A DNA stretch of 32,000 nt, taken from positions 5,010,001 through 5,042,000 of the forward strand of contig NZ_CP042911.1 in the NCBI RefSeq assembly GCF_008065095.1, in the 5' to 3' direction. How positions within the stretch are numbered: the first letter of the stretch is position 1; each line of letters opens with the position of its first letter. A program made the position numbers and the translations under genes. This DNA is from Gemmata obscuriglobus. GTDB lineage: Bacteria > Planctomycetota > Planctomycetia > Gemmatales > Gemmataceae. Below the pieces are notes generated by a model. The model saw only the letters and a program-made list of their open reading frames with translations, made no database searches and was not told the origin of the DNA. This document shows positions 983 through 28,158 of the stretch, piece by piece.

Positions 983-2581
983 ATGCGCACACCTCTGCCC
1001 CTGGTCGCGCCGTTAATCTTCCTGCTCGCCAGTCCTGCGGTGAGTCGCGCGCAACCGGCACCGACGCTCGGCACGGTCCCGACGGATTCGTTCGGGTTCC
1101 TGACGGTCAACGTCGGCAAGTTGTGGGAAAACCCCGGTTTCAAGCCACTCCGCGCGTGGTTCGAGGCGCAGAAATCCGGCCCCACCGACGAACTCTTCGG
1201 CCTGCCTGTCGGGGACATCGAGCGCATCACACTGTTCCTGCCGACGGCCGATCGGCGCCCGCTTGCGGGGGCACTGATCACCACCAAGCAGCCGCTCAAC
1301 GAGGCCAAAGTCATCAAGTCCCTTGGATCGGACGGCGGCCCCCCGCGCCGGTCCGGGAACGCGGTGCGGTTCCAGTCCGGCCGGTTCGACACGCTCATTT
1401 TCGGCGACGAGCGCACGCTCCTGTTCCTGAAAACGGACGGCGAATTGGGGGTGGCGGGTCTGCTCGGGCAGGTGCTGGCGAAGCGGACCGACGGGCCGCT
1501 CGCGGACGCGCTGGCCGGCGCCGCGAAGCACGACTTCGCGTTCGCCCTCGACGGACGCCCGCTCGCCACGTTGCTGCAGGCCGATCGCGAACCGGAACTG
1601 GCCCCGTACCTGGCACTCTTCAGCGCCAGGACGATCACCTTCGCGGCCGACTTCGACAAGACCGCCCGCGGCACGTTCAAGATGACCTTCGCGGACGAGG
1701 CGGGCGCGAAGCGGGCGGCGCCGGTTCTGAAGGAAGGCATCGCGGACATCATCGGCGTGTTCGAGAAAGGGATTCTGGGTAAGGGCCAGTTGGAACCCGC
1801 CGAGCGCGCCTACTTCGAGAACGTGGTTGCCGTACTCAAGGCCGCGAAGGTGGAATCATCAGGTTCAAGTGTTGTTGCCACTGCCGATTTGCCGCATCTG
1901 GACGCGGTCGCGAAACTGGCGGCCGTGCTACCGAAATCGTACGCGGGGGCGGTTGACAGCCGCCGCGGGCAGAACAACCTCAAGCAACTCGCGCTGGCGT
2001 TCCACAACTTCGAAAGCGCCTACGGGGTTTTCCCGAGCGACGTGACACCCGCTGGCGGACCGAAACCCATACCGATGAGCTGGCGGGTGCAGGTGCTGCC
2101 GTACATCGAACAGGGCAACCTGCTCAAGCAACTCGACTGGACGAAGGCGTGGGACGACCCCGTGAACTTGAAGAAGCTCGAATCAATGGAGATGCCGAAG
2201 GTGTTCGAGATCCCCGGTCGACCGGCCCCGAAGGGGCACACGTACTTCCGCGTGTTCAGTCTGCCGAAAAGCGGCAAGGAGGCCGATCGACCGTTCTTCG
2301 CTGAGGGGCAAAAAGGGCCGACGATCACCAGCATCACCGACGGAGTCAGCAACACCCTTATGATCGTGGAAGCCGGAGAGGCGGTTCCATGGTACAAGCC
2401 GGACCTGCTCGCCTACGACGCTAAGGCGCCGCTGCCACAACTGGGCGATAAGGCCGCGGACCGGTTCATCGCGGCCATGGCCGACGGGAGCGTGCGCGTC
2501 CTCCGCCCGAGCAAGGTCGGCGAAAACGCGCTTCGCGCGATCATCACGGCTCAGGGCGGTGAGGTGATTTCGATACCGTAA
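983..2581 (+). CDS. Secreted protein: Sec-type signal peptide, ~320-aa uncharacterised N-domain, C-terminal DUF1559-like (planctomycete pseudopilin-associated) domain
   Basis: N-terminus MRTPLPLVAPLIFLLASPAVSRAQP resembles a signal peptide. The C-terminal half has DUF1559 hallmarks: NNLKQLALAFHNFES, SWRVQVLPYIEQGNLLKQ, ITDGVSNTLMIVEAGE and a terminal ...AAMADGSVRVL. A GGAG lies about 12 nt upstream of the ATG. Confidence 0.8.
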   Translation: MRTPLPLVAPLIFLLASPAVSRAQPAPTLGTVPTDSFGFLTVNVGKLWENPGFKPLRAWFEAQKSGPTDELFGLPVGDIERITLFLPTADRRPLAGALITTKQPLNEAKVIKSLGSDGGPPRRSGNAVRFQSGRFDTLIFGDERTLLFLKTDGELGVAGLLGQVLAKRTDGPLADALAGAAKHDFAFALDGRPLATLLQADREPELAPYLALFSARTITFAADFDKTARGTFKMTFADEAGAKRAAPVLKEGIADIIGVFEKGILGKGQLEPAERAYFENVVAVLKAAKVESSGSSVVATADLPHLDAVAKLAAVLPKSYAGAVDSRRGQNNLKQLALAFHNFESAYGVFPSDVTPAGGPKPIPMSWRVQVLPYIEQGNLLKQLDWTKAWDDPVNLKKLESMEMPKVFEIPGRPAPKGHTYFRVFSLPKSGKEADRPFFAEGQKGPTITSITDGVSNTLMIVEAGEAVPWYKPDLLAYDAKAPLPQLGDKAADRFIAAMADGSVRVLRPSKVGENALRAIITAQGGEVISIP

Positions 2582-2626: not shown

Positions 2627-4696
2627 ATGTTCCGGATACGACTTCGTGCTGCGGTTGCTTTTGTGGCCGGATTGATTGTGAGCGCACCCGCGTCCGCACA
2701 ACCGGCGGAACGTCCGGTTCCACCCGCCGCACTGCCGGTTGTGCCGCCGACGGCGACGGCGTTCGTCACGCTGAAGGTCGCGGATCTCGTCATGCACCCG
2801 GACCTTAAACCGGTGCTGGCGCAGCTCGCGAAGCAGCCCGACGCTCTGGCCGGCGTCTCCGAACTGATCGGGGTTTCGCCCCTGGAACTGGATCGCGTCA
2901 CGCTGTTCTGGCCGCGACTCGGTCGCGACGGCCCCGATCCCGTTCTCGTTGCCACGACGGTCGAACCGTTCAACGAGGCCCGGGTACTGAAAGCGTTGCA
3001 GGCCCGGCCGGTGTTCGGTGCGGACGAGCGGTTTCCGGCGACCGGTCCGGGAAGGCGTGAGGCGTCGGAGCCGTTGTTCCACCGCCTCGATCGCGGGCCG
3101 TTCGCGACCCTGTTGTTGACCGACGAGCGGACCCTCGTGTTCCTGCCGGGGCGCGGGGCCGCCGACGTGACGGCTCTCGCGTTTCTGAATGCGCACCTCA
3201 AGAAAGGGGCCAAAGGCCCGCTCACGGCCGCGCTGGCGACCGCGGGCGCGCACACCTTCGCGGCGGGCGTGTACCTACCGCCGCTGTTCCGTGAGTTCGA
3301 CGGCTGGATCGAACCCGAACTGGCTCCGTACACCGCCCTGCTTGGGGCGCGCACCGCAGTGGTCACAGGTGATCTCGGTCGGGGTGCGAAACTGAACCTG
3401 GCGCTGACGTTCGATGACGCGGCCGCCGCGAAACGCGCCGCTCCGGTGCTGGAAGAAGGGCTCGCGAGTGTCGCCGTGGGTGCGGAGAAGATGGCCGGCA
3501 CGATGCGCGACAGCCGGCGCCCGCTGGACAAGGCGGCCGCGCCGCTCCTGAGTGCGTTCGCCGCAGGGATGAAGGCGGCCGGCGTGAAGGCCGACGGGGC
3601 TACCGCTGTTGCCGTTGCGGAAGTGGATTTTGGTTCGGCAACTGCCAAGGCACTCGGCGATTTGCTTCAAGCCGTGCAGAGTCGTCGCGCGGCCGAACAG
3701 AGGATGCAGAACCTGAAACTGATCGGCTTGGCACTTCACAACTACTACGGCTCCAACCTCCGGTTGCCGACCAACGTGTACGGGCCGAAAGGCGAGTTGC
3801 TTTTGAGTTGGCGGGTGCAACTGCTCCCGTACCTGGAGCAGGACGCGCTGTACAGACAGTTCAAACTGGACGAACCGTGGGACAGTGAGAACAACAGGAA
3901 GCTCATCGAGAAGATGCCGAAGGTGTTCCAGGCCCCCGACCGCAAACACACGCAAGGCGAGACGTTTTACCAGGGATTTGTGCAACGCGAAAACGCGGCT
4001 CCGTTAAAGGGGATCGCCGGGCGCCCGTGGCTCAAGGACGGTGAGAAGCAAGGATGGTCACTCGCCGCTATCCCAGACGGAACGTCGAATACGCTCGCGG
4101 TGGTCGAGGCCGGTGAGGGGGTGGTGTGGACGAAGCCGGACGATCTCCCGTTCGGGGGCGCGGTTCCGGCGCTGGGAGAGAAGGGTTGGGATCGCACCCC
4201 GGCGCTGCTGTTCGATGGGAGCGTGTTCCTGCTTCCGACGACACTCAGACCAGAGATGTTCTGGCCGCGTGTCACCATCGACGGCGGCGAAGTGCTGCCG
4301 GACCTTGAGAACGAGCGCCGTGTGCCGTTCGTTCAGCGACCGGCCTCAGACGTTAAACGGCCGGCTACGACGCAGGCGGAGCCCCCGAAGCCCGCTTCGA
4401 CAAAGGAACTCGAACCGCTTCCACTGCCGAAGAAGGTGGTGGAGCGGGGGACCCGCGAGAGCCTGGCCGTGAAGGTAGCGGCACTCCAGGCGCAGGAGCG
4501 CGCGGCCGTGCTGCTGAAGGAGGCCACCGCGCGGCTCCGGGAGCGGCTCGAAAAGAGCGGCGCGCCGATAGTCGAAATCGAGCGGGTAGAGGCGGTGTAC
4601 GTCGAGGCACTCGCTCGCCTGGAAGCCGTCCGGCGCGAACTCACAGCCGCTGTCGAGGCCCTGAAAGCCGCGCAGAAGAAGGCACCGCAGAAGTGA
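2627..4696 (+). CDS. Secreted paralog of the preceding gene: signal peptide, homologous N-domain, DUF1559-like domain, plus a Pro/Lys-rich linker and coiled-coil C-terminal extension
   Basis: Signal peptide AFVAGLIVSAPASAQP. The N-domain is collinear with gene 983-2581: FVTLKVADL/FLTVNVGKL, LDRVTLFWP/IERITLFLP, EPELAPYTALLGART/EPELAPYLALFSART, AAKRAAPVLEEGL/GAKRAAPVLKEGI. DUF1559 motifs: MQNLKLIGLALHNYY, SWRVQLLPYLEQDALY, IPDGTSNTLAVVEAGE, LLFDGSVFLL. The tail is heptad-like (AVKVAALQAQERAAVLLKEATARLRERLEK...). Confidence 0.8.
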   Translation: MFRIRLRAAVAFVAGLIVSAPASAQPAERPVPPAALPVVPPTATAFVTLKVADLVMHPDLKPVLAQLAKQPDALAGVSELIGVSPLELDRVTLFWPRLGRDGPDPVLVATTVEPFNEARVLKALQARPVFGADERFPATGPGRREASEPLFHRLDRGPFATLLLTDERTLVFLPGRGAADVTALAFLNAHLKKGAKGPLTAALATAGAHTFAAGVYLPPLFREFDGWIEPELAPYTALLGARTAVVTGDLGRGAKLNLALTFDDAAAAKRAAPVLEEGLASVAVGAEKMAGTMRDSRRPLDKAAAPLLSAFAAGMKAAGVKADGATAVAVAEVDFGSATAKALGDLLQAVQSRRAAEQRMQNLKLIGLALHNYYGSNLRLPTNVYGPKGELLLSWRVQLLPYLEQDALYRQFKLDEPWDSENNRKLIEKMPKVFQAPDRKHTQGETFYQGFVQRENAAPLKGIAGRPWLKDGEKQGWSLAAIPDGTSNTLAVVEAGEGVVWTKPDDLPFGGAVPALGEKGWDRTPALLFDGSVFLLPTTLRPEMFWPRVTIDGGEVLPDLENERRVPFVQRPASDVKRPATTQAEPPKPASTKELEPLPLPKKVVERGTRESLAVKVAALQAQERAAVLLKEATARLRERLEKSGAPIVEIERVEAVYVEALARLEAVRRELTAAVEALKAAQKKAPQK

Positions 4697-4757: not shown

Positions 4758-6215
4758 TTACTCCTCGCCCTTGAACTGCTCCTTATCGATCTTGTATTGC
4801 GCGATCTTGTCCGTGATGCTGCGGCGCGACAGTCCGGTGATCTTGGCGCACTTGCCCACATGCCCCCGGGAGCGTTTCAGCGCGCGGCGAATGTACCGCT
4901 CCTCGAACGCGGCCGTGAGTTCCGAGAGTTGGTCCGGCAGCTTGCGGTTCAGGTCCACATGGAACGGGTGCTTGCCGGCGGCACTGCTTTCGGGCCGGCG
5001 CCCCACTTCGGGCGGCAAATCCTTCGTGCGAATCACCCCGTCGCGTGCCGTCACGCACGCGCGCTCGATCGCGTTCTCAAGCTGCCGCACGTTACCCGGC
5101 CACGGGCACTTGGTGAGCAGGTCCAGCGCCTCGGGGCTGATCGTCGGCGGCTTCTGGCCGACGCGGACGAACTTCTGGCAGAAGTGCGACACCAGAACCG
5201 GGATGTCCTCGGTGCGCTCGCGCAGCGGCGGGATGTCGATCCGCACCACGTTCAGCCGGTAATACAGGTCTTCGCGGAACTTCCCGTCCTTGACCAGCTT
5301 TTCCATGTCCTGGTGGGTGGCGGCCACCACCCGAACGTCGATCTCGATCGGCTCGGCCCCGCCGACCCGCTCGAACCGCCGCTCCTGGAGCACCCGCAAC
5401 AGCTTGACCTGCATCGACATCGGCACGTCGCCGATCTCGTCGAGGAACAGCGTGCCCTTGTGGGCCAGCTCGAACCGGCCGATGCGCTTGCGGTCGGCGC
5501 CGGTGTACGAGCCCTTCTCGTGCCCGAACAGTTCGCTCTCCAGCAGGTTCTCGTTCAGCGCGCCGCAGTTGACCGCGACGAACTCACCGGTCCGGTAGTT
5601 CGCCGACGCTTGGTGGATGGCGCGGGCGATCTGCTCCTTGCCGGTCCCGGTTTCGCCGCGGATGAGCACCGTTGAGGCAGTGCCCGCGACGTGCCCGATC
5701 AGTTCGAACAGGTCGACCATCTTCGGGCTACGGCTGAGCACGTTCTGGAACGTGTGCCGCTCGCCCAGCTCGCGGCGCAGCGCCGCGACCTCGTCCTGGA
5801 GCGCACGGTCCCGGAGGGCACGTTGCACGATGATCTGAAGGTGCTGCGGGTCCGGCGGCTTGGTGAGGAAGTCGTAGACCCCCATCCGCATCGCCTCGAC
5901 GGCGTCCTTGATGTTGCCGTTGCCGGTGGTGACGATCACCGTGACCGGGATCTTCTCCGCCTGAATGGTTTCGATCAGCTTCATCCCGCCGACCCGGGGC
6001 ATGCGCAGGTCGGTGATCACCAGGCTGTACGGCTTGGCGCGCAGCATGGCGAGCCCGGCGGCGCCGTCCTCGGCGGTATCAACCTCCAGCTTGAGGCTCA
6101 TCTGGAGCAGCTCCTGGAGGGACGTGCGGGTGTCCTCCAGGTCTTCGACGACGAGAACCCGTTGGACCGGGGCGGGCGCTGGCACGGAAGGTGCAGGTGC
6201 TGGCTCGTTAACCAT
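4758..6215 (-). CDS. Sigma-54-dependent transcriptional activator / response regulator, NtrC family (REC + AAA+ + Fis-type HTH)
   Basis: REC domain: RVLVVEDLEDT...LVITDLRMP...FLTKP. AAA+ domain: Walker A GETGTGKE, Walker B LFLDEIGD, sigma-54 contact loop ELFGHEKGSYTGA (a GAFTGA variant), and RVVAATH. C-terminal HTH: GHVGKCAKITGLSRRSITDKIAQYKI. Confidence 0.92.
   Translation of the reverse strand: MVNEPAPAPSVPAPAPVQRVLVVEDLEDTRTSLQELLQMSLKLEVDTAEDGAAGLAMLRAKPYSLVITDLRMPRVGGMKLIETIQAEKIPVTVIVTTGNGNIKDAVEAMRMGVYDFLTKPPDPQHLQIIVQRALRDRALQDEVAALRRELGERHTFQNVLSRSPKMVDLFELIGHVAGTASTVLIRGETGTGKEQIARAIHQASANYRTGEFVAVNCGALNENLLESELFGHEKGSYTGADRKRIGRFELAHKGTLFLDEIGDVPMSMQVKLLRVLQERRFERVGGAEPIEIDVRVVAATHQDMEKLVKDGKFREDLYYRLNVVRIDIPPLRERTEDIPVLVSHFCQKFVRVGQKPPTISPEALDLLTKCPWPGNVRQLENAIERACVTARDGVIRTKDLPPEVGRRPESSAAGKHPFHVDLNRKLPDQLSELTAAFEERYIRRALKRSRGHVGKCAKITGLSRRSITDKIAQYKIDKEQFKGEE
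6180..6196 (+). promoter_or_regulatory. Candidate sigma-54 (-24/-12) promoter upstream of the sensor-kinase operon
   Basis: TGGCACggaagGTGCAg has GG(6181-82)-N10-GC(6193-94) spacing and one mismatch to TGGCAC-N5-TTGCA. It sits about 115 nt upstream of the ATG at 6311, inside the first codons of the divergent NtrC-family gene. Confidence 0.45.
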
Positions 6216-6310
6216 GCGCTGAGTTCCTACGGTATTGGCTCAGGGTCTATTGTATCCCGAGCGGGTTGTTGTGTGGCGCGCGAATCGTTCCTCCCCACCA
6301 GGCCCAGTTC

Positions 6311-9300
6311 ATGCTGGACGTTCTGACCAGTCTCTTCGATCCGACCGGGTTCACGCGCCGCGCCCACTGCGGGGCCGCATGGAACGACGAGCTGATCTTT
6401 CTGCACGCGACCAGCGACCTCTTCATCTGGCTCGCGTACGTTTCGATCCCGCTGGTGCTGCTGTACTTCACGCGGCGCCGGGACCTGCCGTTCCCGCGGC
6501 TGTTCGTGCTCTTCGCGCTGTTCATCCTGGCGTGCGGCACCACGCACCTGATCGACGCCCTCATCTTCCAGTTCCCGATCTACCGGTTCGCGGGGCTGAT
6601 GAAGGGCGTCACGGCGGTGGTGTCGTGGGCGACGGTGGTCGCGCTCATTCGGGTCATCCCGCGGGTGATGCCGGCGGTCGCCGAGGCGAGCAAGACGGTC
6701 CGGACCGGGACCGACACGAAGACGCACCTGCCGATCACCGGCGAGGCGCGCGGGACCTCCGGGCGGGCGTACATCGTCGCGCTGCTGGTGGCGGTGCTCG
6801 CGGTGCTGGTCCGCGCGGCCGGGGACGCCGTCCTCAAACAGGAGCACGCGCTCGTGGTGCCGCTCCTGGGCGTGGTGTACGTGAGCTGGCGGTACGGGTT
6901 CCAGCCGGCGCTCGTGACGCTCCTGGTCTCGCTGGTCGGGTTCACGTTCTTCTTCGTCGAGCCGCGGAACCGGCTCTTCGTGACCGGGCTGGGGAGCCAG
7001 ATGGCCCTGGCGCTGTTCTTTTTTTGCGGGGTGGCGTGCGCGGCGCTGGGCGAATCGCACCGGGTCGCCCAGCGCCGCGCGCGGGCCGCGCTGGGGGTCG
7101 CGCTGGGGCGGCAAGAGGAGCTCGAGTCGGAGGTGGTCCGGCGCCGGGTGGTGGAGGCGGCGCTGCGGCAGCGCGAGGCCGACCTGGTCGCGGCCCAGGC
7201 CCGCGCCGACGAGGCGCTGGCCCGGCTCGACGCGTTCATCGAGAACGCGAACGTCGGAATCGTCTTCTTCGATCCCGAACTGCGGTACGAGCGGGTCAAC
7301 AGCTTCATCGCCCGCGCCAACGGCAAACCGGTGAGCGAGCACCTCGGGCGCACCGTCACGGAGGTGGTTCCCGACGTCCCGGCCGAACGGGTCGAACGGT
7401 ACCGGGCGGTCGCGACGGGGGCCGCGGAGTCGTACTCCGACACCGTCGACGTTCGCCACCCGATCACCGGCGCGCTTCAGGCGTTCCATGTTACGGCGTT
7501 CCCGGTGCGGTTGCCCGGCGGCCCCACCCTTGGGGCCGGCGTTGTGGTACACGAGATCACCGAGCAGCGGCGGGCGGAGCAGGAGCTGCGGCGCAGCGAG
7601 CGCAACCTCACCGACTTCTTCGAGAACGCGAACGTCGGGCTCCACTGGGTCGACGGCGCGGGGGCGATCGTCCGCGCCAACCGGGCCGAACTGGAGATGC
7701 TCGGGTACGACCGCACCGAGTTCGTGGGGCACAAGGCCGAGGCGTTTTACGAGGAGCCCGGCGCGGGGCGCGAGCTGCACGCCCGCTTGCTCCGCGGGGA
7801 GCGGCTCACGAACCACCCGGCGCGGCTCCGCTGTAAGGACGGCACGGTCCGCGACGTTCTGATTTCCGCGACGGCGCTGGTGGAGAACGGCTCGTTCGTT
7901 CACGCCCGCTGCTTCACCCGCGACGTGACCGAGCAGAAGCGGGCCGCGGACGATTTGGCGGAGCGCGCCCGCGCGATCGCGCTGCGGGCGGACGTGGCCG
8001 CCGGGCTGGCCGGGGCCGCGGAGACCCGCTCCGCGCTCCAGGGGTGCGCGGAGACCCTGGCGCGGGCGCTCGGGGCCGCGCTCGCCCGCGTTTGGACCCT
8101 CGACGAGTCCGGGCGGTGGCTCGACCTCCAGGCCAGTGCCGGCGCGTTCACCCCGGACCAGGGACCGCACGAGCGAGTGCGAGTGGGCGAGACGAAGATC
8201 GGACGCATCGCCGCAAGCGGTCACCCGTACCTGACCGACGACGTGCCAAACGACCCGCTCACCAGCGACCCGGAGTGGGCCGGGCGCGAGGGCATCCGCT
8301 CGTTCGCCGGGCACCCGCTCGTGGTGGACGGGCGCGTGTTCGGGGTGCTCGGGGTGTACTCCCGCACCAAGCTGTCCGAAGGGCTGGTGACCGACCTCGG
8401 GCCGATCGCCGCGAACCTCGCCCAGTTCATCGACCGGCGCAAGGCGGTCGAGGCGGTGCGGGACAGCGAGGCCCGGTTCCGGACGCTGGCCCAGGCGGTC
8501 CCGCACATCATCTGGGTGACCCGCGCGAACGGGTACCACGAGTACTACAACCAGCGCTGGTACGATTACACCGGGCTCACCGAGGAGCAGAGCCTCGGGG
8601 ACGGGTGGTCCGGGCCGCTGCACCCCGACGACCGGGCGCGCGCGGCAGCCCGCTGGGAGCAGTCCACCGCCACCGGTGCGGAGTACGAGATCGAGTACCG
8701 GTTCCGCGGCGCCGACGGCCGGTACCGGTGGTTCCTGGGCCGCGCGCTGCCGCAGCGGGACGCCGACGGGCGCATCGTCCGGTGGTACGGCACGTGTACC
8801 GATATTCATGAAGAGCGGATGGCCACCGAGGCGCTGCGGCGCAACGAGGAGCGGTACCGGACGCTGACCGAGGCGGTCCCGCACATCGTGTGGAACGCGG
8901 ACGCCGGCGGCGCGGTGACCTACTTTAACCGCCGCTGGACCGATTACGCCGCGCTGCCGGTGGACCAGGAGCGCAGGAGCGACTGGACCGAAGCGCTGCA
9001 CCCCGACGACCGCGACCGGGTGTACCGGGCGTGGCGCGACACGGTCGTCCAGGTCGCGCCGGGCGGGTCCGATCGCTTCTTCCAGGAGTTCCGGCTCCGC
9101 CACGCCGCGACCGGCGCGTACCGGTGGTTCCAGAGCGTGGCCGTCCCGCTCCGCCACCCGGACGGGACCGTGGACCAGTGGATCGGTTCGATGGCCGACA
9201 TCGACGACCAGAAGACCGCCGTCGAGCGGGTGCGCCAGAGCGAGGCGTTCCGCCGCAGCGTGTTCGACAACAGCCCCGACTGCCTGAAGGTGTTCGACCT

Positions 9301-11281
9301 GGACGGGCGCCTGCTGGAGATGAACGAGGCCGGGTGCCGGCTGATGGAGCTCGACGACCTCGAGCCGATCCGCGGGAACCTGTGGGCGGAGATGTGGCCG
9401 GTGGCGAACCGGGAGGTCATCGGCGAGGCCGTGGCCGCCGCGCGCGACGGGCAGGTGGGGCGGTTCCAGGGGTTCTGCCCGACCGCGAAGGGGACGCCCA
9501 AGTACTGGGACGTGTCGGTGGCCCCGCTGCCGGGCGCGGACGGCAAGCCCGACCGGCTGCTCGGGGTGTCGCGGGACATCACCGAGCAGCGCCGGGCCGA
9601 GGAGCGGATCCGTGAGAGCGAGGAGCTGTTCCGCCAGATGGCCGAGTCGATCCCGCAGCTCGCGTGGATGACCGATGCGGAGGGGCACATCTTCTGGTAC
9701 AACCAGCGCTGGTACGATTACACCGGCACCACCCTGGAGGAAATGAAGGGCTGGGGCTGGCAGGCGGTCCAGGACCCGGACGAGTTGCCCCGCGTCGTGG
9801 AGCGGTGGCGGGCCGCGCTGGCCGCCGGCGAGCACTGGGAGGACACGTTCCCGCTCCGCGGGCGCGACGGCAAGTTCCGCTGGTTCCTGAGCCGCGCGCG
9901 GCCGATCCGCGACCAGGTCGGGAACATCATCCGCTGGTTCGGAACCAACACCGACGTGTCCGCCCAGCGCGAACTGGAGCAGACGCTCCGCGCGAGCGAG
10001 GAGCGGTTCCGGACGCTCACGGAGACGGTCCCGCAGATCGTGTGGACCGCCGAGCCGAAGGGCGCGGTCACGTTCTTCAACCGCCGGTGGACGGATTACA
10101 CCGGGGTGGAGCTGGAGGCGGGCCGCGGCTCCGTGTGGGGCGGGGACCTCCTGCACCCCGATGACGCGGACCGGGTGCGCGTCGGGTGGCAGCTCGCGGT
10201 GGCCCGGGGGGGCGGCGGGTACTCCTCCGAGTTCCGGCTCCGACGCGCCGACGACGGCGCGTACCGCTGGTTCCTCTCGAACGCGCTGCCGCTGCGCGAC
10301 CAGAACGGGAACGTCGAGGAGTGGGTGGGCACGCTCACCGACATCGACGACCAAAAGCGCCAGACCGAGACCCTTGAGGCGATGGTGCGCGAGCGCACGC
10401 TGGCGCTCGAGCTGGCCAACGTCGCTCTGACCGAGGAGATCGAGGTGCGGCAGGCGGCCGAGGACCAGGCGCGGGCGGTCGCGGTGGAGCTGGAACGCAG
10501 CAACGGCGAGTTGGAGAAGTTCGCCTACGTCGCGTCCCACGACCTCCAGGAGCCGCTGCGGAAGATCCAGGCGTTCGGCGACCGGCTCGTGACCAAGTGC
10601 CGTGCCGAACTCAGCGACAAGGGGAAAGAGTACCTCGACCGGATGCAGGTGGCGGCGGCGCGGATGCGGCGCCTGATCGACGACCTGCTCCAGTTCTCCC
10701 GGGTCACGACCCAGCAGCGGCCGTTCCGCCGCCTGGACCTGCAGAAGTTGGTGAGCGAAGTCGTTTCCGATCTCGACGTGCGGATCGGTCAGGCGAACGG
10801 CGCGGTTCAGGTGGGGCCGTTGCCCGCGGTGGACGCGGACCCGACGCAAATGCGTCAGTTGTTCCAGAACCTGATCGCCAACGCGGTAAAATTTCAGCGA
10901 CCGGGTGTCCCACCGGTGGTGCAAATCACCGGCGAACTCGCAGCCCAGGTCCCGCTAAATAACGAAGGCGCAGAGCCCATTTCTGTGTGTCGCATCACGG
11001 TGCGGGACAACGGGATCGGGTTCGACGACAAGTACCGGGACCGGATCTTCGAGGTGTTCCAGCGGCTCCACGGCCGCGACGAGTACGAGGGCACCGGCGT
11101 CGGCCTCGCCATCTGCCGCAAGATCGTCGAGCGGCACGGCGGGGCCATTGAGGCACACGGCATTTCGGGCGAAGGGGCCACGTTCGTGGTCGTTTTGCCC
11201 GCCACCCACGCTAACTCGCTTGAGGCGAACGATAAAAATGTCCAATCGGACGAAACCGATTACGATTCTCATGGCCGATGA
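6311..11281 (+). CDS. Giant membrane sensor histidine kinase: ethylene-binding-domain-like 3-TM module, DUF4118-like TM module, PAS x2, GAF, PAS x5, HisKA (phytochrome type), HATPase_c
   Basis: - The ATG at 6311 is preferred over the TTG at 6266.
- N-terminus: SDLFIWLAYVSIPLVLLYF...FILACGTTHLIDA...VTAVVSWATVVALIRVIP.
- DUF4118-like block, about 6765-7060: FTFFFVEPRNRLFV.
- PAS starts: FIENANVGIVFFD (~7235), FFENANVGLHWVD (~7616), AVPHIIWVT (~8490), AVPHIVWNA (~8875), VFDNSPDCLKVFD (~9260), SIPQLAWMT (~9645), TVPQIVWTA (~10025).
- GAF, about 7960-8440: GHPLVVDGRVFGVLGVYS.
- H-box FAYVASHDLQEPLRKI, with the His codon at 10538-10540.
- ATPase N/G boxes: NLIANAVKF, RDNGIGF, GTGVGLAICRKIVERHGG. 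Confidence 0.9.
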   Translation: MLDVLTSLFDPTGFTRRAHCGAAWNDELIFLHATSDLFIWLAYVSIPLVLLYFTRRRDLPFPRLFVLFALFILACGTTHLIDALIFQFPIYRFAGLMKGVTAVVSWATVVALIRVIPRVMPAVAEASKTVRTGTDTKTHLPITGEARGTSGRAYIVALLVAVLAVLVRAAGDAVLKQEHALVVPLLGVVYVSWRYGFQPALVTLLVSLVGFTFFFVEPRNRLFVTGLGSQMALALFFFCGVACAALGESHRVAQRRARAALGVALGRQEELESEVVRRRVVEAALRQREADLVAAQARADEALARLDAFIENANVGIVFFDPELRYERVNSFIARANGKPVSEHLGRTVTEVVPDVPAERVERYRAVATGAAESYSDTVDVRHPITGALQAFHVTAFPVRLPGGPTLGAGVVVHEITEQRRAEQELRRSERNLTDFFENANVGLHWVDGAGAIVRANRAELEMLGYDRTEFVGHKAEAFYEEPGAGRELHARLLRGERLTNHPARLRCKDGTVRDVLISATALVENGSFVHARCFTRDVTEQKRAADDLAERARAIALRADVAAGLAGAAETRSALQGCAETLARALGAALARVWTLDESGRWLDLQASAGAFTPDQGPHERVRVGETKIGRIAASGHPYLTDDVPNDPLTSDPEWAGREGIRSFAGHPLVVDGRVFGVLGVYSRTKLSEGLVTDLGPIAANLAQFIDRRKAVEAVRDSEARFRTLAQAVPHIIWVTRANGYHEYYNQRWYDYTGLTEEQSLGDGWSGPLHPDDRARAAARWEQSTATGAEYEIEYRFRGADGRYRWFLGRALPQRDADGRIVRWYGTCTDIHEERMATEALRRNEERYRTLTEAVPHIVWNADAGGAVTYFNRRWTDYAALPVDQERRSDWTEALHPDDRDRVYRAWRDTVVQVAPGGSDRFFQEFRLRHAATGAYRWFQSVAVPLRHPDGTVDQWIGSMADIDDQKTAVERVRQSEAFRRSVFDNSPDCLKVFDLDGRLLEMNEAGCRLMELDDLEPIRGNLWAEMWPVANREVIGEAVAAARDGQVGRFQGFCPTAKGTPKYWDVSVAPLPGADGKPDRLLGVSRDITEQRRAEERIRESEELFRQMAESIPQLAWMTDAEGHIFWYNQRWYDYTGTTLEEMKGWGWQAVQDPDELPRVVERWRAALAAGEHWEDTFPLRGRDGKFRWFLSRARPIRDQVGNIIRWFGTNTDVSAQRELEQTLRASEERFRTLTETVPQIVWTAEPKGAVTFFNRRWTDYTGVELEAGRGSVWGGDLLHPDDADRVRVGWQLAVARGGGGYSSEFRLRRADDGAYRWFLSNALPLRDQNGNVEEWVGTLTDIDDQKRQTETLEAMVRERTLALELANVALTEEIEVRQAAEDQARAVAVELERSNGELEKFAYVASHDLQEPLRKIQAFGDRLVTKCRAELSDKGKEYLDRMQVAAARMRRLIDDLLQFSRVTTQQRPFRRLDLQKLVSEVVSDLDVRIGQANGAVQVGPLPAVDADPTQMRQLFQNLIANAVKFQRPGVPPVVQITGELAAQVPLNNEGAEPISVCRITVRDNGIGFDDKYRDRIFEVFQRLHGRDEYEGTGVGLAICRKIVERHGGAIEAHGISGEGATFVVVLPATHANSLEANDKNVQSDETDYDSHGR
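6380..6690 (+). other. Ethylene-binding-domain (EBD)-like transmembrane module of the kinase
   Basis: The region is collinear with my recollection of Arabidopsis ETR1 residues ~20-120. ISDFFIAIAYFSIPLELIYF aligns with TSDLFIWLAYVSIPLVLLYF, FIVLCGATHLINLW with FILACGTTHLIDAL, and KVLTAVVSCATALMLVHIIP with KGVTAVVSWATVVALIRVIP. The Cys codon is at 6533-6535, and the His lies four residues downstream (CGTTH). Confidence 0.7.
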
Positions 11282-11705
11282 CGATCCGGACGATCGCGAG
11301 CTGACACGGGAAGCGTTTGAAGAGAACCATTTGGCCAACGATTTGCGGTTCGTCGAGGACGGTGAGGAGCTTCTTGACTATTTGAACCAGCGCGGCAAAT
11401 ACGCCGGCGCGGGAGCTGCTCCCCTGCCGGGGCTGATCCTGCTGGACCTGAACATGCCGCGCAAGGACGGGCGCGAGGCGCTCCAGGAGATCAAGGCCGA
11501 CCCGCGGCTGCGGTCCATCCGTGTGGTCGTCATGACCACCTCCAAGGCCGAAGAGGATGTGGTCCGGAGTTACGACCTGTCGGCCGCATCGTACATCACC
11601 AAACCGGTCACCTTCGAGCGGCTGGTGGAGGTGGTGCGGACCCTCGGCAAGTACTGGCTGGAAATTGTGGAGCTGCCACCCGATGGGCACGGAACCCAAG
11701 CTTGA
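11238..11705 (+). CDS. Single-domain response regulator (CheY/Rcp1-like receiver)
   Basis: PITILMADDDPDDRELT...LILLDLNMPRKDGREALQEIKADPRLRSIRVVVMTTS...YITKP...YWLEIVELP closely resembles phytochrome-partner Rcp1-type receivers. The ATG at 11238 overlaps the kinase 3' end (stop at 11279-11281) by 44 nt in another frame. Confidence 0.9.
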   Translation: MSNRTKPITILMADDDPDDRELTREAFEENHLANDLRFVEDGEELLDYLNQRGKYAGAGAAPLPGLILLDLNMPRKDGREALQEIKADPRLRSIRVVVMTTSKAEEDVVRSYDLSAASYITKPVTFERLVEVVRTLGKYWLEIVELPPDGHGTQA

Positions 11706-12864
11706 TCTCTCGTCCGGCTCGATCCGGGTGTTGCTGATCGACGACGACGAGGACGATCGGTTCCTCACGGAAGAGCGACTCGGCGATGTGCCCGGGCGGC
11801 CGTACACGCTCGACTGGACGCCGCATTATGCGGAGGGGCTGGAGGCGATCTGCACCGGCACCCACGACGCGTACCTGCTGGACTTCCGGCTCGGGGCGCG
11901 TACCGGCATCGAACTGCTGCGCGAGTCCCGGGCGCGCGGGCGGGCGGCCCCGGTGATTCTCCTCACCGGGCAGGCGCACTCTCAGACCGATTTGGAAGCG
12001 CTCGATGCGGGGGCCGACGACTACCTCGAAAAGGCCGGTCTGACATCGGCCCTGCTGGACCGCGCGATTCGGTACGCACTGGTGCAGTCACGCGCCGCGG
12101 CGGAGCTTGAACGTAAGGTGCGCGAGCGCACCGACGAACTGGCCCGGGTGAACGAGGCGCTCCGCGAAGCCGACCGGCGGAAGGACGAGTTCCTCGCCCT
12201 CCTGGCGCACGAACTGCGGAACCCGCTCACGCCGATTCTCAACGCGCTCGAAATCCTCCGGCTCGCTAACGATTCCGGCGACACGGTCCGGCGCCAGCGC
12301 GAGCGCATGGAGCGCCAGGTGGCGCAACTGAAGCGGCTGGTGGAAGATCTGCTCGACGTGTCCCGAATTACTACCGGGAAGTTGCGCCTCGCCCCAGAGC
12401 GACTCACGATTCAGGAGCTGATCGACTCGGCAGTCGACATGAGCCGCTCGCAGCTCGAGGCGGCGAAGCTGGAGCTTGTGCTCAATGTGCCCGCGGAACA
12501 GGTGGTGCTGACCGGCGACCGGGTGCGGCTAACGCAGGTGCTTTGCAACGTGCTGAACAATGCGGCGAAGTTCACCGAGCCCGGCGGCCGGGTGTTCGTC
12601 TCCGTGGCCCCGCACCCGGGCCGCGTCACGGTCACGATTCGTGACACGGGCGTCGGCATTGCCGAGTCGGTGCTTCCTCAGCTCTTCGGGCTGTTTACAC
12701 AGGTGGACCGCACGCTGAGCCGTTCGCAATCGGGCCTGGGGATCGGGTTGGCCCTCGTGCGCCGGTTGGTCGAAATGCACGGCGGCACGGTGACTGCACA
12801 CAGTGACGGGCCGGGCACGGGCGCAACGTTTACGATTCACCTGCCGGTGACCCGAGCAGCGTAA
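11683..12864 (+). CDS. Hybrid REC-histidine kinase (N-terminal receiver, HisKA, HATPase_c)
   Basis: Receiver: [15 protein letters not shown]...AYLLDFRLG...VILLTGQ...DYLEK. A coiled coil follows, then the H-box [16 protein letters not shown]. ATPase boxes: [35 protein letters not shown]. The ATG at 11683 overlaps the upstream RR gene by 23 nt. Confidence 0.9.
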
Positions 12865-13064
12865 AGACTGTGGCTTACACGCCTACTGTTTTTGGGGCAG
12901 TGATGCCGTCGGAGTCTTGAGCCCCTGCCGTTACAGCACCCAAGCGCTACGTTCCCAGCGCAGTCCTTTTCCCTACAGGCGGCAACGGTTTGCCGCGCAC
13001 CGCGGCACCGCGGTTGCGTAACGGTCGAGCGTTTCCGCTCTTCGTTCTTGTAGGGGATCCGCTC

Positions 13065-14885
13065 ATGGCTGCTTCGGATTGGCAGCGCGCGCTGGTGGCG
13101 CTGGCCGCGACCGTGGTCGGCGCGGCGCTCGTGGCCGTACTGTTCTGGGCACGATCGATTTTCATTCCCGTCACGCTCGCGGTGTTCTTCGCGTTTGTAC
13201 TGTCGCCGGTCGTGAACCGTCTTCAGCGCCGCGGGATCGGGCGGCCCGCGGCGGTGATCCTGACCGTCGGGCTGCTCGGCCTCACTGGGTTAGGTATCGG
13301 TACTGTCATCGCGCAACAGATTACGCGGGTGGCCGAGACGTCGGCCGAGAAGCGCGAATCGATCAAACAAAAATTAACCTCGGTTAAGCAGTGGATCGCG
13401 GGCGGCGGCGAGAGCCAGTTCGGGAAGCTCGTCGATGATGTCGAAGACGTGTTCGCATCGGCGAAACCTGCGTCGAACTCGAACGCCGTGGTGGTGGAAC
13501 AAGCGTCACCGTCGATGGCGGCCCAGTGGAGCGGGATGCTCAGCCCGGCCGCCGAGGTACTCGGCCAGGCGGCATTCACGTTCATCCTCACCGTGTTCAT
13601 GTTGCTCAAACGTGAGGACCTGCGGAACCGGATGATCCGGCTCCTTGGCGCGGGGAAGATCACCACCACCACGAAGGCCGTGGACGACGCTTCGCAGCGC
13701 ATCAGCAAGTACCTGCTCAGTCAGTTGATGGTGAACACCGCGTTCGGTGCCATCATCACGATTTCTCTGTTCGCACTGGGCGTGAAGTACTCGATCCTGT
13801 GGGGCTTCATCGCGACCCTCATGCGATATGTGCCGTACATCGGCACGTGGGTGGGTCTCATCCCGCCGCTGCTGTTCTCCGTCGCAACCGCGCCGGAGTG
13901 GGGCGGCGGTTGGGGGCAACCGGTCGCGGTGCTGGCACTGTTCCTGGGCCTCGAGGCGATCTGCAACAACCTCGTCGAGCCGAAGCTGTACGGCCAGAGC
14001 ATGGGGCTGTCCGAGGTGGCGCAGCTCGTGTCGGCCGCGTTCTGGGCGTTTATGTGGGGGCCGATCGGTCTGATCCTCTCCGGGCCGTTGACGGTGTGCC
14101 TGCTGGTGCTCGGGCGGCACGTGAAGCAGTTCGAGTTCTTTGAGGTGCTGCTGGGCGACCAGCCGGCGCTGGAACCACGGGTGGCGTTCTACCAGCGGCT
14201 CACCGCTCACGACCAAGACGAGGCGGCCGACGTAGCGCTCGAAGCCGCTGAAGAACATGGAGCCGAGTTCGCACTCGATTCGGTCGTGGTGCCGGCGCTC
14301 TGTTTGGCCCGCCGCGACCACCACGAGGGCGATCTGGACAAGTCCGACCTGCACTACGTCGCCACCGCGGCTCGTGAGATCGCCGAAGAGGTGGCCGAAC
14401 TCCGGCCGGTTACAGAACACCCTGCGGATGCGCGCGTGCGCCTGCTGATCGCCCCCGCACGCGACGAAGCCGAGCACGTGGCCGCGGAGGTGTTCGCCAT
14501 GACCCTCGACCCCTCGCGGTGGGAGGTGAAAATCGTCGGCGACGAAACGCTCGCTTCCGAACTGATCACACAGGCTGACGAGTTCCGCCCTGCGGTTGTG
14601 TTGATCGCCACCCTTCCGCCGGGCGGGGTCACGCACGCTCGGTACGTACTCACCCGCCTGCGCCAGCGGTTCCCAGAAGTGAAACTGCTGCTGGGGCGCT
14701 GGGGTGCGGATGCGCCGGAGCAGGACAACCGCAGCGAGACGATCAAGAACATCGACGGAATCGACCGCACGCTGGCCGACAGCCGTAAACGGCTCGCAGA
14801 CCTGTACCCGAGGCTTGAAGCGGCCGGCGACAAGGAACAATGGCCCGCGTCCGGGCGCGAGCTGGTTGGCACGGCAGGTGCATAG
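13065..14885 (+). CDS. AI-2E family (PerM/UPF0118) membrane transporter with a ~245-aa cytoplasmic C-terminal extension
   Basis: The multi-TM N-terminal ~360 aa have AI-2E-like blocks: FVLSPVVNRLQRRGIGRPAAVILTVGL, YLLSQLMVNTAFG, MRYVPYIGTWVG, NNLVEPKLYGQSMGLS, FWAFMWGPIGLILSGPLTV. The ATG at 13065 is preferred to the upstream alternative start at 12990. The soluble tail runs from ~14150 to the end. Confidence 0.85.
   Translation: MAASDWQRALVALAATVVGAALVAVLFWARSIFIPVTLAVFFAFVLSPVVNRLQRRGIGRPAAVILTVGLLGLTGLGIGTVIAQQITRVAETSAEKRESIKQKLTSVKQWIAGGGESQFGKLVDDVEDVFASAKPASNSNAVVVEQASPSMAAQWSGMLSPAAEVLGQAAFTFILTVFMLLKREDLRNRMIRLLGAGKITTTTKAVDDASQRISKYLLSQLMVNTAFGAIITISLFALGVKYSILWGFIATLMRYVPYIGTWVGLIPPLLFSVATAPEWGGGWGQPVAVLALFLGLEAICNNLVEPKLYGQSMGLSEVAQLVSAAFWAFMWGPIGLILSGPLTVCLLVLGRHVKQFEFFEVLLGDQPALEPRVAFYQRLTAHDQDEAADVALEAAEEHGAEFALDSVVVPALCLARRDHHEGDLDKSDLHYVATAAREIAEEVAELRPVTEHPADARVRLLIAPARDEAEHVAAEVFAMTLDPSRWEVKIVGDETLASELITQADEFRPAVVLIATLPPGGVTHARYVLTRLRQRFPEVKLLLGRWGADAPEQDNRSETIKNIDGIDRTLADSRKRLADLYPRLEAAGDKEQWPASGRELVGTAGA
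14867..14883 (+). promoter_or_regulatory. Candidate sigma-54 (-24/-12) promoter upstream of the DUF883 gene
   Basis: TGGCACggcagGTGCAt has GG(14868-69)-N10-GC(14880-81) spacing and differs from the 6180 site at one of the 16 shared positions. It overlaps the last codons of the AI-2E gene and sits about 70 nt upstream of the ATG at 14951. Confidence 0.45.
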
Positions 14886-14950: not shown

Positions 14951-15379
14951 ATGGCGGATCTCAAGGATCGCGTGAAGACCGGCATCGATAACGCGGCCGA
15001 CGCAGCGAAGAACGCGACCGACAAGGCGGCCAACGCGACACAGAACGTAAAGAACGACGGCGGCAACCTCGCGGACCGCGTGAAGGATAACGCCCAAAAC
15101 CTCGTGGACCGGGCTGGCGATTTTGCCGGACAGGCTCGCGACAAGGTGCAGGAATGGGCAGGCGACGCTCGGAGCACGCTGGAGAACGTCGGGGACCGGG
15201 CCCGTCACATTGCCGGTGATGCCCGTCATGCCGTCGAGAACGCATACGATACGGCGAGCGATTCGGTCGGTGATTTCGGCCGGGAAGTGACGGCTCTGGT
15301 CCGCAAGCACCCGCTGCCGGCGATTCTCATCGGGTTCGGCGTCGGCCTGCTCATCGGTCGTACGGCTCGCGTCATCTGA
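14951..15379 (+). CDS. DUF883 (ElaB/YqjD-like) C-tail-anchored stress-associated protein
   Basis: A helical, Ala/Asp/Asn/Lys-rich body (DNAADAAKNATDKAANATQNVKNDGGNLADRVKDNAQNLVDRAGD...) ends in a family-typical tail anchor, HPLPAILIGFGVGLLIGRTARVI. The ATG at 14951 is preferred to the ORF-track start at 14840. Confidence 0.7.
   Translation: MADLKDRVKTGIDNAADAAKNATDKAANATQNVKNDGGNLADRVKDNAQNLVDRAGDFAGQARDKVQEWAGDARSTLENVGDRARHIAGDARHAVENAYDTASDSVGDFGREVTALVRKHPLPAILIGFGVGLLIGRTARVI

Positions 15380-27066: not shown

Positions 27067-28158
<1,092 letters not shown>

What the first reader, a model, noticed from the sequence alone, without database searches (positions are those of the whole stretch)
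6380..6690. The N-terminus of the 1656-aa histidine kinase looks like a plant/cyanobacterial ethylene-binding domain
The first three predicted TM helices align block-for-block with my recollection of the Arabidopsis ETR1 ethylene-binding domain.
- Helix 1: SD(L/F)FI..AY.SIPL.L.YF.
- Helix 2: F(I)(L/V).CG(T/A)THLI, containing the Cys and His that correspond to ETR1 C65/H69, the Cu(I) ligands required for ethylene binding.
- Helix 3: K..TAVVS.AT...L...IP.
- Helix-1 positions that I recall as essential (Asp25, Tyr32, Ile35/Pro36 equivalents) are also present.

Ethylene-binding-domain proteins are characterised functionally in plants and in Synechocystis (SynEtr1/UirS). Outside cyanobacteria they are mostly sequence predictions.

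Here the domain is fused to a DUF4118 membrane module, seven PAS domains, a GAF domain and a phytochrome-type kinase core. The gene is followed by an Rcp1-like receiver, which is the same partner type used by cyanobacterial photoreceptor kinases.

This could be an uncharacterised ethylene (or other Cu-dependent small-molecule) sensing pathway in a planctomycete.
Basis: partly seen in the sequence, partly recalled or inferred. Interest (0 to 1): 0.8.

Follow-up and report, generated by a model that had tools for sequence, protein, structure and literature searches.

The report
Ethylene-receptor-type sensor domain in Gemmata kinase

Summary
The ORF at 6311-11281 (+) encodes a 1656-aa protein, WP_010038586.1 of Gemmata obscuriglobus.

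- **Domain match:** residues 28-120 match Pfam ETR1_N (PF25487) at E 2.4e-33, 114.7 bits against a cutoff of 27. BLASTP to a plant ETR1 ortholog gives E 2e-16. A profile-profile comparison gives 99.4% probability.
- **Key residues:** ETR1 D25, Y32, I35, P36, I62, C65, H69 and K91 align to identical D36, Y43, I46, P47, I72, C75, H79 and K98. These are near-invariant in 116 bacterial homologs.
- **Validated relative:** the same residues are present in AzoEtr1 of Azospirillum, which binds ethylene experimentally.
- **Fold:** hydropathy and an AlphaFold model (pLDDT 93.7) give three transmembrane helices.

The family is large: more than 5,400 clusters at 50% identity, and at least 598 species genomes. 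The literature already reports putative ethylene receptors in several bacterial phyla. This is therefore a new member of a known kind.

Specific to this locus is a Gemmataceae-only fusion of the domain to DUF4118. It sits in a conserved cassette with an Rcp1-like receiver, a REC-kinase hybrid and a divergent sigma-54 activator, and sigma-54-type promoters are conserved nearby.

Ethylene or Cu(I) binding and any physiological role remain inferred.

The parts
6311..11281 (+). Gene for the 1656-aa sensor histidine kinase (WP_010038586.1, Gemmata obscuriglobus). Architecture: ETR1_N, DUF4118, two PAS, GAF, five PAS, HisKA, HATPase_c.
   Evidence: ORF list; same start used by the gene caller; Pfam; identity and public names.
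6392..6670 (+). ETR1_N ethylene-binding-type domain, residues 28-120: three transmembrane helices at about 26-53, 62-84 and 91-132.
   Evidence: Pfam PF25487, 114.7 bits, E 2.4e-33. hhalign 99.4% to the plant ETR1 profile. AlphaFold2 pLDDT 93.7 with three long helices. Hydropathy.
6368..6382 (+). Conserved N-terminal (predicted periplasmic) Cys20-x3-Trp24 motif that precedes the Pfam model. It is a candidate for the single dimer-forming cysteine noted in cyanobacterial receptors.
   Evidence: C20 in 99 of 108 and W24 in 109 of 110 bacterial homologs. Also present in AzoEtr1. The single-Cys remark is in PMC6682694.
6416..6418 (+). Asp36, equivalent to ETR1 Asp25 and AzoEtr1 Asp35.
   Evidence: Alignments. 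Asp in 112 of 113 homologs. Role described in PMC10266040 and PMC11819568.
6533..6547 (+). Cys75-Gly-Thr-Thr-His79, equivalent to ETR1 Cys65...His69, the proposed Cu(I) ligands.
   Evidence: Alignments. Both residues invariant in 116 of 116 homologs. Same numbering, C75/H79, as experimentally tested AzoEtr1.
6602..6604 (+). Lys98, equivalent to ETR1 Lys91 and AzoEtr1 Lys98, the proposed polar partner of the Asp for signal output.
   Evidence: Alignments. Lys in 110 of 116 homologs. Role described in PMC10266040.
6770..7084 (+). DUF4118 (KdpD-type) membrane module, about four further transmembrane helices, joined to the ethylene-binding domain by a polar linker of about 30 residues.
   Evidence: Pfam PF13493, E 1.6e-14. 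Hydropathy. The fusion is seen only in Gemmataceae cassette loci.
7226..10480 (+). Cytoplasmic array of seven PAS domains with one GAF (residues 572-708, nt 8024-8434). No PHY or PAS_2 domain and no LOV motif.
   Evidence: Pfam; motif scan. The array length varies among orthologs, which are 675 to 1656 aa long.
10511..11206 (+). Transmitter module: HisKA (H-box SHDLQEPL at residue 1409) and HATPase_c, with N, G1, F and G2 boxes intact.
   Evidence: Pfam. Motifs and the translation. Named PDB relatives are bacteriophytochrome kinases at 1e-33; an unnamed kinase, 8f71, scores 1.8e-60.
11238..11705 (+). Single-domain response regulator (155 aa), Rcp1/RcpA/RcpB-like. Its start overlaps the end of the kinase gene by 44 nt.
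   Evidence: Pfam; PDB sequence search; gene calls. Conserved directly downstream in cassette loci.
11683..12864 (+). REC-HisKA-HATPase_c hybrid kinase (393 aa). Its start overlaps the end of the response-regulator gene by 23 nt.
   Evidence: Pfam; gene calls. Conserved in L003-L006, L010 and L080.
4758..6215 (-). Divergently transcribed NtrC-type sigma-54-dependent response regulator (REC, AAA+, HTH_8).
   Evidence: Pfam; NCBIfam. Conserved in the divergent position in L003-L006 and L010.
6180..6195 (+). Sigma-54-type (-24/-12) promoter match TGGCACGGAAGGTGCA. It ends 115 nt before the kinase ATG and lies inside the first codons of the divergent activator gene.
   Evidence: Two matches in the window against 0.00 expected in shuffles. 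Conserved in L003 and L004; GG/GC elements kept in L005 and L006 although the overlapping peptide changes.
14867..14882 (+). Second, near-identical sigma-54-type promoter match TGGCACGGCAGGTGCA, at the end of the AI-2E transporter gene and 68 nt before ORF 14951-15379.
   Evidence: Conserved at the same place in L003 and L010.

Best explanation
The N-terminus of this Gemmata obscuriglobus histidine kinase is a bona fide member of the ETR1_N family, the ethylene-binding domain of plant ETR1, cyanobacterial SynEtr1 and Azospirillum AzoEtr1.

**Shown here**
- Homology to the family.
- A three-helix membrane domain.
- Every residue known to matter for Cu(I) and ethylene binding.
- An intact kinase core.
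- A conserved gene cassette around the kinase.

**Inferred mechanism**
1. The domain dimerises in the cytoplasmic membrane with its N-terminus outside. Cys20 may form an intermolecular disulfide.
2. Each monomer holds one Cu(I) through Cys75 and His79, with Asp36 orienting the His.
3. Ethylene binds the Cu(I). The change passes through the Asp36-Lys98 polar link to helix 3.
4. From there it passes through the DUF4118 membrane module and the PAS/GAF array to the transmitter.
5. By analogy with ETR1, SynEtr1 and AzoEtr1 (the inverse-agonist model), ethylene lowers autophosphorylation at His1410.
6. Phosphoryl groups go to the translationally coupled Rcp1-like receiver. They probably also pass through the adjacent REC-kinase hybrid to the divergent sigma-54 activator.
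7. That activator would drive the sigma-54-type promoters in front of the operon itself and in front of a small membrane-anchored protein gene downstream.

The many PAS domains and the GAF domain imply that other signals are integrated as well.
For: **Family membership**
- Pfam ETR1_N at 114.7 bits against a cutoff of 27.
- BLASTP to a plant ETR1 ortholog, E 2e-16.
- hhalign 99.4%, E 5.3e-22.
- tblastn to AzoEtr1, 39.7% identity over 120 aa, E 1e-12. The recovered sequence carries D35, C75, H79 and K98, exactly as published.

**Key residues**
- D36, Y43, I46, P47, I72, C75, H79 and K98 are identical to the ETR1 residues. They are invariant or near-invariant in 116 homologs and in a cross-phylum alignment.

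**Fold and topology**
- AlphaFold2 pLDDT 93.7, with three long helices.
- The loop charges (RRR after helix 1; six Arg/Lys after helix 3) fit an N-out topology.

**Signalling partners**
- The kinase H, N, G1, F and G2 boxes are intact.
- The receiver gene overlaps the kinase gene, as it does in AzoEtr1.
- The cassette of sigma-54 response regulator, EBD-DUF4118 kinase, Rcp-like receiver and REC-kinase hybrid is conserved in L003-L006 and L010; L080 keeps the downstream genes but has no upstream sequence.
- The sigma-54 promoter motif is conserved, with 0 matches expected by chance.

**Experimental precedent in relatives**
- Ethylene binding and the roles of the key residues are documented in PMC10266040, PMC6682694 and PMC11819568.
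Against: - No binding or physiological data exist for this protein or for any planctomycete.
- Only a handful of members of a family of more than 5,400 clusters have been tested.
- Helix 3 is followed by a polar linker of about 30 residues and a second membrane module (DUF4118). In ETR1, AzoEtr1 and most relatives the helix runs straight into cytoplasmic domains, so signal transmission here may differ.
- Seven PAS domains and a GAF domain could dominate the input.
- No copper transporter or chaperone gene lies in the window.
- Gemmata obscuriglobus is a freshwater heterotroph with no known plant association (own knowledge).
- The link from the kinase to the sigma-54 activator rests on gene neighbourhood only. 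No shared upstream activator site was found.
Confidence: 0.62

Rival explanations
1. The domain is a true ETR1_N homolog and binds Cu(I), but in this organism it reports something other than ethylene. Candidates are copper availability, the redox state of the metal, or another ligand that binds Cu(I), such as other small alkenes or CO.
For: The conserved residues establish a metal site, not ligand identity. The family is very large and spread over many non-plant-associated aquatic and soil lineages.
Against: Every tested member that keeps these residues binds ethylene: plants, Synechocystis, Geitlerinema cells and Azospirillum (PMC6682694, PMC11819568). The residues needed specifically for ethylene binding in ETR1, beyond the Cu ligands, are also kept.
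Confidence: 0.2
2. The ETR1_N module is mainly a membrane anchor and dimerisation element. The real inputs are the cytoplasmic PAS and GAF domains and/or DUF4118.
For: There are seven PAS domains and a GAF domain. A flexible-looking linker follows helix 3. The number of PAS domains changes rapidly among orthologs.
Against: A mere anchor would not keep D36, C75, H79 and K98 invariant across phyla. The EBD, DUF4118 and kinase core are the constant parts of the orthologs, while the PAS array is the variable part.
Confidence: 0.12
3. The resemblance to ETR1 is a chance or compositional similarity between hydrophobic helices.
For: Transmembrane helices often give spurious low-level matches. For example, the only PDB sequence hit was a zinc transporter at E 0.86.
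Against: Curated profile E 2.4e-33, profile-profile 99.4%, identical polar and functional residues in register, and 70 of 70 relatives scoring as ETR1_N.
Confidence: 0.01

Closest known systems
Arabidopsis ETR1 ethylene-binding domain (Pfam ETR1_N, PF25487)
   Same: Three transmembrane helices. Identical D25, Y32, I35, P36, I62, C65, H69 and K91 equivalents. 34-36% identity. The domain sits at the N-terminus of a histidine-kinase-type protein that also contains a GAF domain.
   Different: One N-terminal Cys instead of the Cys4/Cys6 pair. A bacterial-type conserved C-x3-W / (W/F)LH motif lies ahead of helix 1. DUF4118 and seven PAS domains are inserted. The kinase is predicted to be catalytically intact and to have a cognate receiver, whereas plant receptors signal mainly through CTR1 independently of kinase activity (PMC11819568).
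AzoEtr1 of Azospirillum brasilense Sp7 (experimentally shown to bind ethylene; PMC11819568)
   Same: 37-40% identity in the domain. Same residue numbering for C75, H79 and K98. Same N-terminal Cys20. PAS and HisKA/HATPase_c follow the domain. A receiver-only response-regulator gene overlaps the 3' end of the kinase gene.
   Different: AzoEtr1 is 525 aa with no DUF4118, a single PAS region and no GAF. No REC-kinase hybrid or divergent sigma-54 activator was described next to it. It comes from a plant-root-associated alphaproteobacterium.
SynEtr1 (Slr1212/UirS/PixA) of Synechocystis PCC 6803
   Same: A bacterial ethylene-binding domain fused to further sensory domains and an active histidine kinase that signals to a response regulator. 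It has a single N-terminal Cys (PMC6682694).
   Different: SynEtr1 carries a cyanobacteriochrome GAF photosensor and signals to the DNA-binding regulator Slr1213/UirR. Here the GAF is generic, and Pfam reports no bilin-lyase or PHY-type signature. I could not obtain the SynEtr1 sequence for a direct alignment.
Cph1/Rcp1 and bacteriophytochrome two-component pairs
   Same: The transmitter module and the downstream single-domain receiver belong to the same subfamilies. One public annotation even calls the protein 'Phytochrome-like protein cph1'.
   Different: There is no PAS_2-GAF-PHY photosensory core. The phytochrome name reflects only the kinase core.
KdpD-type DUF4118 membrane module
   Same: Pfam PF13493 match with about four transmembrane helices ahead of the cytoplasmic signalling domains.
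   Different: Here it follows an ETR1_N domain instead of the KdpD N-terminal domains. The combination was seen in only 6 of 70 relatives scanned, plus one further locus. All seven are Gemmataceae.

Membership tests
ETR1_N / ethylene-binding domain family | Significant match to the curated family profile, above the gathering threshold | tested here: met
   PF25487 at 114.7 bits against a cutoff of 27, E 2.4e-33, covering profile positions 2-95 of 97. hhalign to the plant profile gives 99.4%.
ETR1_N / ethylene-binding domain family | Three N-terminal transmembrane helices with the N-terminus outside | tested here: met
   Hydropathy peaks at 28-55, 57-88 and 93-121. AlphaFold2 helices at 26-53, 62-84 and 91-132, pLDDT 93.7. 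Orientation is inferred from the positive-inside rule only.
ETR1_N / ethylene-binding domain family | Cu(I) ligands Cys65 and His69 on helix 2 | tested here: met
   C75 and H79 align in register and are invariant in 116 of 116 homologs.
ETR1_N / ethylene-binding domain family | The other residues required for ethylene binding in ETR1 (Asp25, Tyr32, Ile35, Pro36, Ile62). The list comes from Wang et al. 2006 as I recall it. Asp25 is confirmed in PMC10266040. | tested here: met
   D36, Y43, I46, P47 and I72 are identical.
ETR1_N / ethylene-binding domain family | Helix-3 Lys91, coupled to Asp25 for signal output | tested here: met
   K98 is Lys in 110 of 116 homologs. Role described in PMC10266040.
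ETR1_N / ethylene-binding domain family | N-terminal cysteine(s) for a disulfide-linked dimer | tested here: inconclusive
   There is one conserved Cys (C20; 99 of 108 homologs), as in cyanobacterial receptors (PMC6682694). Disulfide formation cannot be tested here.
ETR1_N / ethylene-binding domain family | Saturable, high-affinity ethylene binding that depends on Cu(I) | not testable with these tools
   This needs 14C-ethylene binding assays and Cu(I) titration on the expressed domain.
Two-component sensor histidine kinase with a cognate receiver | Intact H, N, G1, F and G2 boxes, and an adjacent receiver with the conserved Asp, Thr and Lys | tested here: met
   SHDLQEPL at 1409, DNGIG at 1566 and GTGVGL at 1594. 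Pfam HisKA and HATPase_c. The receiver gene overlaps the kinase stop.
Phytochrome (Cph1-type), as one public annotation names it | PAS_2-GAF-PHY photosensory core | tested here: not met
   Pfam reports only generic PAS and GAF families, with no PAS_2 or PHY. Only the kinase core and the receiver resemble those of phytochrome systems.

The most novel reading that the evidence does not exclude
A non-phototrophic freshwater planctomycete with no known plant association senses ethylene, for example from algae, cyanobacteria or photochemical breakdown of dissolved organic matter. It would do so through a Gemmataceae-specific seven-helix receptor (ethylene-binding domain plus DUF4118). That receiver would feed a four-protein phospho-network (kinase, Rcp1-like receiver, REC-kinase hybrid, sigma-54 activator) with sigma-54-dependent autoregulation. 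This would extend ethylene from a plant hormone and plant-microbe cue to a general environmental signal for aquatic heterotrophs.
Probability: 0.3. Interest if true: 0.55.

Novelty: new member of a known kind. Interest (0 to 1): 0.33.

Why it matters
If the domain binds ethylene, Gemmata obscuriglobus would give a third bacterial phylum with a functional ethylene receptor, after Cyanobacteria and Pseudomonadota. I understand genetic tools exist for this model planctomycete (own knowledge).

It is neither photosynthetic nor known to be plant-associated. A functional receptor would therefore bear on why thousands of environmental bacteria carry this domain.

The conserved cassette and promoters give concrete downstream targets to test.

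As a piece of annotation the result is modest. The public names 'PAS domain S-box protein' and 'Phytochrome-like protein cph1' miss the most informative domain, although Pfam already detects it.

Tried and rejected
- **Solved structures.** PDB sequence search with the domain gave nothing significant; the best hit was ZnT8 at E 0.86. Foldseek of the AlphaFold model against PDB gave no match at E <= 0.001. No solved structure of this domain was found to compare with.
- **NCBIfam.** No ethylene-receptor-specific model fired. Only a generic PAS-domain model passed its cutoff; the named kinase, regulator and transporter models all scored below theirs.
- **Literature.** Searches linking ethylene receptors or ethylene-binding domains with Planctomycetes or Gemmata found nothing relevant.
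- **Key papers not held.** Lacey & Binder 2016 and Wang et al. 2006 are not in the library. The list of seven essential residues therefore rests partly on my recollection; D25, C65, H69 and K91 are documented in PMC10266040 and PMC11819568.
- **SynEtr1.** I could not retrieve its sequence, so there is no direct alignment to it. AzoEtr1 was recovered instead from the A. brasilense Sp7 megaplasmid.
- **Upstream activator sites.** A search for shared sites or inverted repeats ahead of the two sigma-54-type promoters found nothing.
- **Window contents.** No copper-handling genes and no second ethylene-binding-domain gene lie in the window.
- **First homolog search.** It returned only short fragments, apparently because of a length filter, so full-length relatives were taken from genome loci instead.
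Full report
**What is there.** The window has about 65% G+C. It carries a long ORF at 6266-11281 on the + strand. Gene calls on public assemblies start at the ATG at 6311, giving 1656 aa. Homologs begin at the same Met. The exact protein is WP_010038586.1 of Gemmata obscuriglobus. Public names are 'PAS domain S-box protein', 'histidine kinase' and 'Phytochrome-like protein cph1'. Pfam gives this architecture:
- ETR1_N (PF25487), residues 28-120;
- DUF4118, residues 154-258;
- seven PAS stretches between about 306 and 1390;
- one GAF, residues 572-708;
- HisKA, residues 1401-1466;
- HATPase_c, residues 1510-1632.

**Check of the observation.** The ETR1_N match is strong: 114.7 bits against a gathering score of 27, E 2.4e-33. 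For the first 150 residues alone it is E 5.8e-35.

I queried the protein database with my recollection of Arabidopsis ETR1. It returned plant ethylene receptors at 95-98% identity to the query, so real plant sequences were available. Three comparisons followed:
- BLASTP of the Gemmata N-terminus against the Noccaea ETR1 ortholog gave 36% identity over 143 residues, E 2e-16.
- A profile of 29 bacterial homologs against a profile of 11 plant ETR1 N-termini gave 99.4% probability, E 5.3e-22.
- In all alignments ETR1 D25, Y32, I35, P36, I62, C65, H69 and K91 pair with identical D36, Y43, I46, P47, I72, C75, H79 and K98.

In 116 bacterial homologs these columns are near-invariant:

| Residue | Conserved in |
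|---|---|
| D36 | 112 of 113 |
| C75 | 116 of 116 |
| H79 | 116 of 116 |
| K98 | 110 of 116 |

Hydropathy shows three hydrophobic segments in the domain and further ones in DUF4118. An AlphaFold2 model of residues 1-135 has mean pLDDT 93.7 with helices at 26-53, 62-84 and 91-132. The charge distribution places the N-terminus outside and the PAS array in the cytoplasm: RRR follows helix 1, six Arg/Lys follow helix 3, and an Arg-rich stretch follows the last DUF4118 helix. This topology is inferred from the positive-inside rule.

**Comparison with validated receptors.** No solved structure of this domain was found, either by sequence or by fold.

I recovered AzoEtr1, the Azospirillum brasilense Sp7 receptor shown to bind ethylene, from megaplasmid NZ_CP012915.1. 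Its D35, C75, H79 and K98 match the numbering published in PMC11819568, which confirms its identity. The Gemmata domain is 37-40% identical to it. Both share a conserved Cys20 and a Trp just ahead of helix 1. PMC6682694 notes that cyanobacterial receptors have a single N-terminal Cys where plants have two.

As in AzoEtr1, a receiver-only response-regulator gene overlaps the 3' end of the kinase gene. It lies at 11238-11705, with a 44-nt overlap.

**Context and pathway.**
- The receiver is closest to the phytochrome response regulators RcpB, RcpA and Rcp1, at E 1e-30 to 1e-32 against about 1e-10 for CheY.
- The transmitter's named PDB relatives are bacteriophytochrome kinases at 1e-33; an unnamed kinase, 8f71, scores higher at 1.8e-60. 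There is no PAS_2 or PHY domain, so the protein is not a phytochrome.
- Next comes a REC-HisKA-HATPase_c hybrid at 11683-12864, overlapping the receiver gene by 23 nt. After it lies an AI-2E-family transporter gene.
- Upstream and divergent is an NtrC-type sigma-54 activator at 4758-6215 on the - strand.

The best 80 are mostly Planctomycetota, but they include Verrucomicrobiota, Bacteroidota, Acidobacteriota and Myxococcota. Of 70 full-length relatives:

| Feature | Number of 70 |
|---|---|
| ETR1_N | 70 |
| HisKA | 59 |
| PAS | 45 |
| Receiver domain | 33 |
| DUF4118 | 6 |

The DUF4118 fusion occurs in seven Gemmataceae loci. In L003-L006 and L010 the kinase is flanked by the divergent sigma-54 regulator, the Rcp-like receiver and the REC-kinase hybrid. 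L080 has the two downstream genes but no upstream sequence, and L034 shows none of them. The kinase length in these loci ranges from 675 to 1656 aa. The ethylene-binding domain, DUF4118 and the kinase core are therefore the conserved unit. The long PAS/GAF array is an expansion specific to Gemmata.

**Sigma-54 promoters.** The pattern TGGCACG-N4-KTGCW occurs twice in the window, against 0.00 expected in shuffles.
- **6180-6195.** This copy ends 115 nt before the kinase ATG. It is kept in G. algarum and in a Gemmataceae MAG. Its GG/GC elements persist in two more distant loci, although the overlapping N-terminal peptide of the activator changes from APSVP to AAAVP. That points to constraint on the promoter.
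- **14867-14882.** This copy is just ahead of a 142-aa protein with only sub-threshold YtxH, DUF883 and apolipophorin-like similarity and a C-terminal membrane anchor. It is kept at the end of the AI-2E gene in G. algarum and in an Urbifossiella MAG.

No shared upstream activator site was found. That the divergent activator drives these promoters is an inference.

**Mechanism.** Homology, fold, key residues, an intact kinase and a conserved neighbourhood are shown here. The following steps are inferred from work on ETR1, SynEtr1 and AzoEtr1 (PMC10266040, PMC6682694, PMC11819568):
- Cu(I) is held by C75 and H79, with D36 assisting.
- Ethylene binds the Cu(I).
- The signal is transmitted through the D36-K98 link.
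- Ethylene inhibits autophosphorylation.
- Phosphoryl groups pass to the Rcp1-like receiver.

The further relay to the sigma-54 activator is more speculative. One structural difference may matter. Helix 3 is followed by a polar linker and a second membrane module, not by a continuous helix into cytoplasmic domains.

**Novelty.** The family is large. A profile search of 1.84 billion representative proteins found 10,784 at E <= 0.001 and 5,400 at E <= 1e-30. That profile includes some sequence beyond the domain. Pfam holds the family, and its hit is precomputed for this protein. The literature already states that putative ethylene receptors occur in several bacterial phyla, and a proteobacterial one has been validated (PMC11819568). 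I found no paper that mentions Planctomycetes or Gemmata in this connection. This is a new member of a known kind, with a lineage-specific architecture and a testable pathway.

**Verdict.** The functional claim is plausible but untested. I put roughly 0.6 on the full explanation, and higher on ethylene binding alone. Interest is moderate to low.

Noticed in passing
window 6180-6195 (+) and 14867-14882 (+): Two nearly identical sigma-54-type promoter matches, TGGCACGG(A/C)AGGTGCA, against 0.00 expected by chance. One lies ahead of the kinase operon, inside the 5' end of the divergent sigma-54 activator gene. The other lies at the end of the AI-2E transporter gene, ahead of a small ORF. Both are conserved in related Gemmataceae loci.
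   Followed up: partly
window 14951-15379 (+): A 142-aa protein made of repeated 'DRxxD/A' amphipathic segments with a C-terminal glycine-zipper membrane anchor. Its Pfam similarity to ApoLp-III, YtxH and DUF883 is only sub-threshold. It sits directly downstream of the second sigma-54-type promoter, so it is a candidate output gene.
   Followed up: partly
window 6368-6382 (+), residues C20-W24: A conserved Cys-x3-Trp motif, followed by (W/F)LH, lies ahead of helix 1 in bacterial ethylene-binding domains, including AzoEtr1. It is outside the Pfam model and absent from plant ETR1, which has Cys4/Cys6 instead.
   Followed up: partly
window 12990-14885 (+); gene call 13065-14885: An AI-2E-family (PerM-like) transporter fused to a weak B12-binding-like C-terminal domain. 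It follows the cassette in G. algarum (L003) and Urbifossiella (L010), and is nearby on the other strand in L006.
   Followed up: partly
window 983-2581 and 2627-4696 (+): Two tandem DUF1559 (SBP_bac_10) genes, a family typical of Planctomycetes, converge on the sigma-54 activator gene.
   Followed up: no
window 23086-24483 (-): A DDE transposase (weak ISL3, Mutator and MULE matches) lies next to sugar-nucleotide genes: GDP-mannose 4,6-dehydratase at 27067-28062 (-) and an epimerase at 26019-27044 (-).
   Followed up: no
L001 1239-2597 (just outside the window, upstream): In the same contig, a reverse-transcriptase (RVT_1) gene sits next to a small VMAP-M5 ORF, upstream of the DUF1559 genes.
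   Followed up: no
L053, L054, L072 (one Gemmataceae MAG); L038, L051 (one Planctomycetota MAG): Some planctomycete genomes carry two or three separate genes with an ethylene-binding domain and different architectures, so the domain has expanded into paralogs in this phylum.
   Followed up: no
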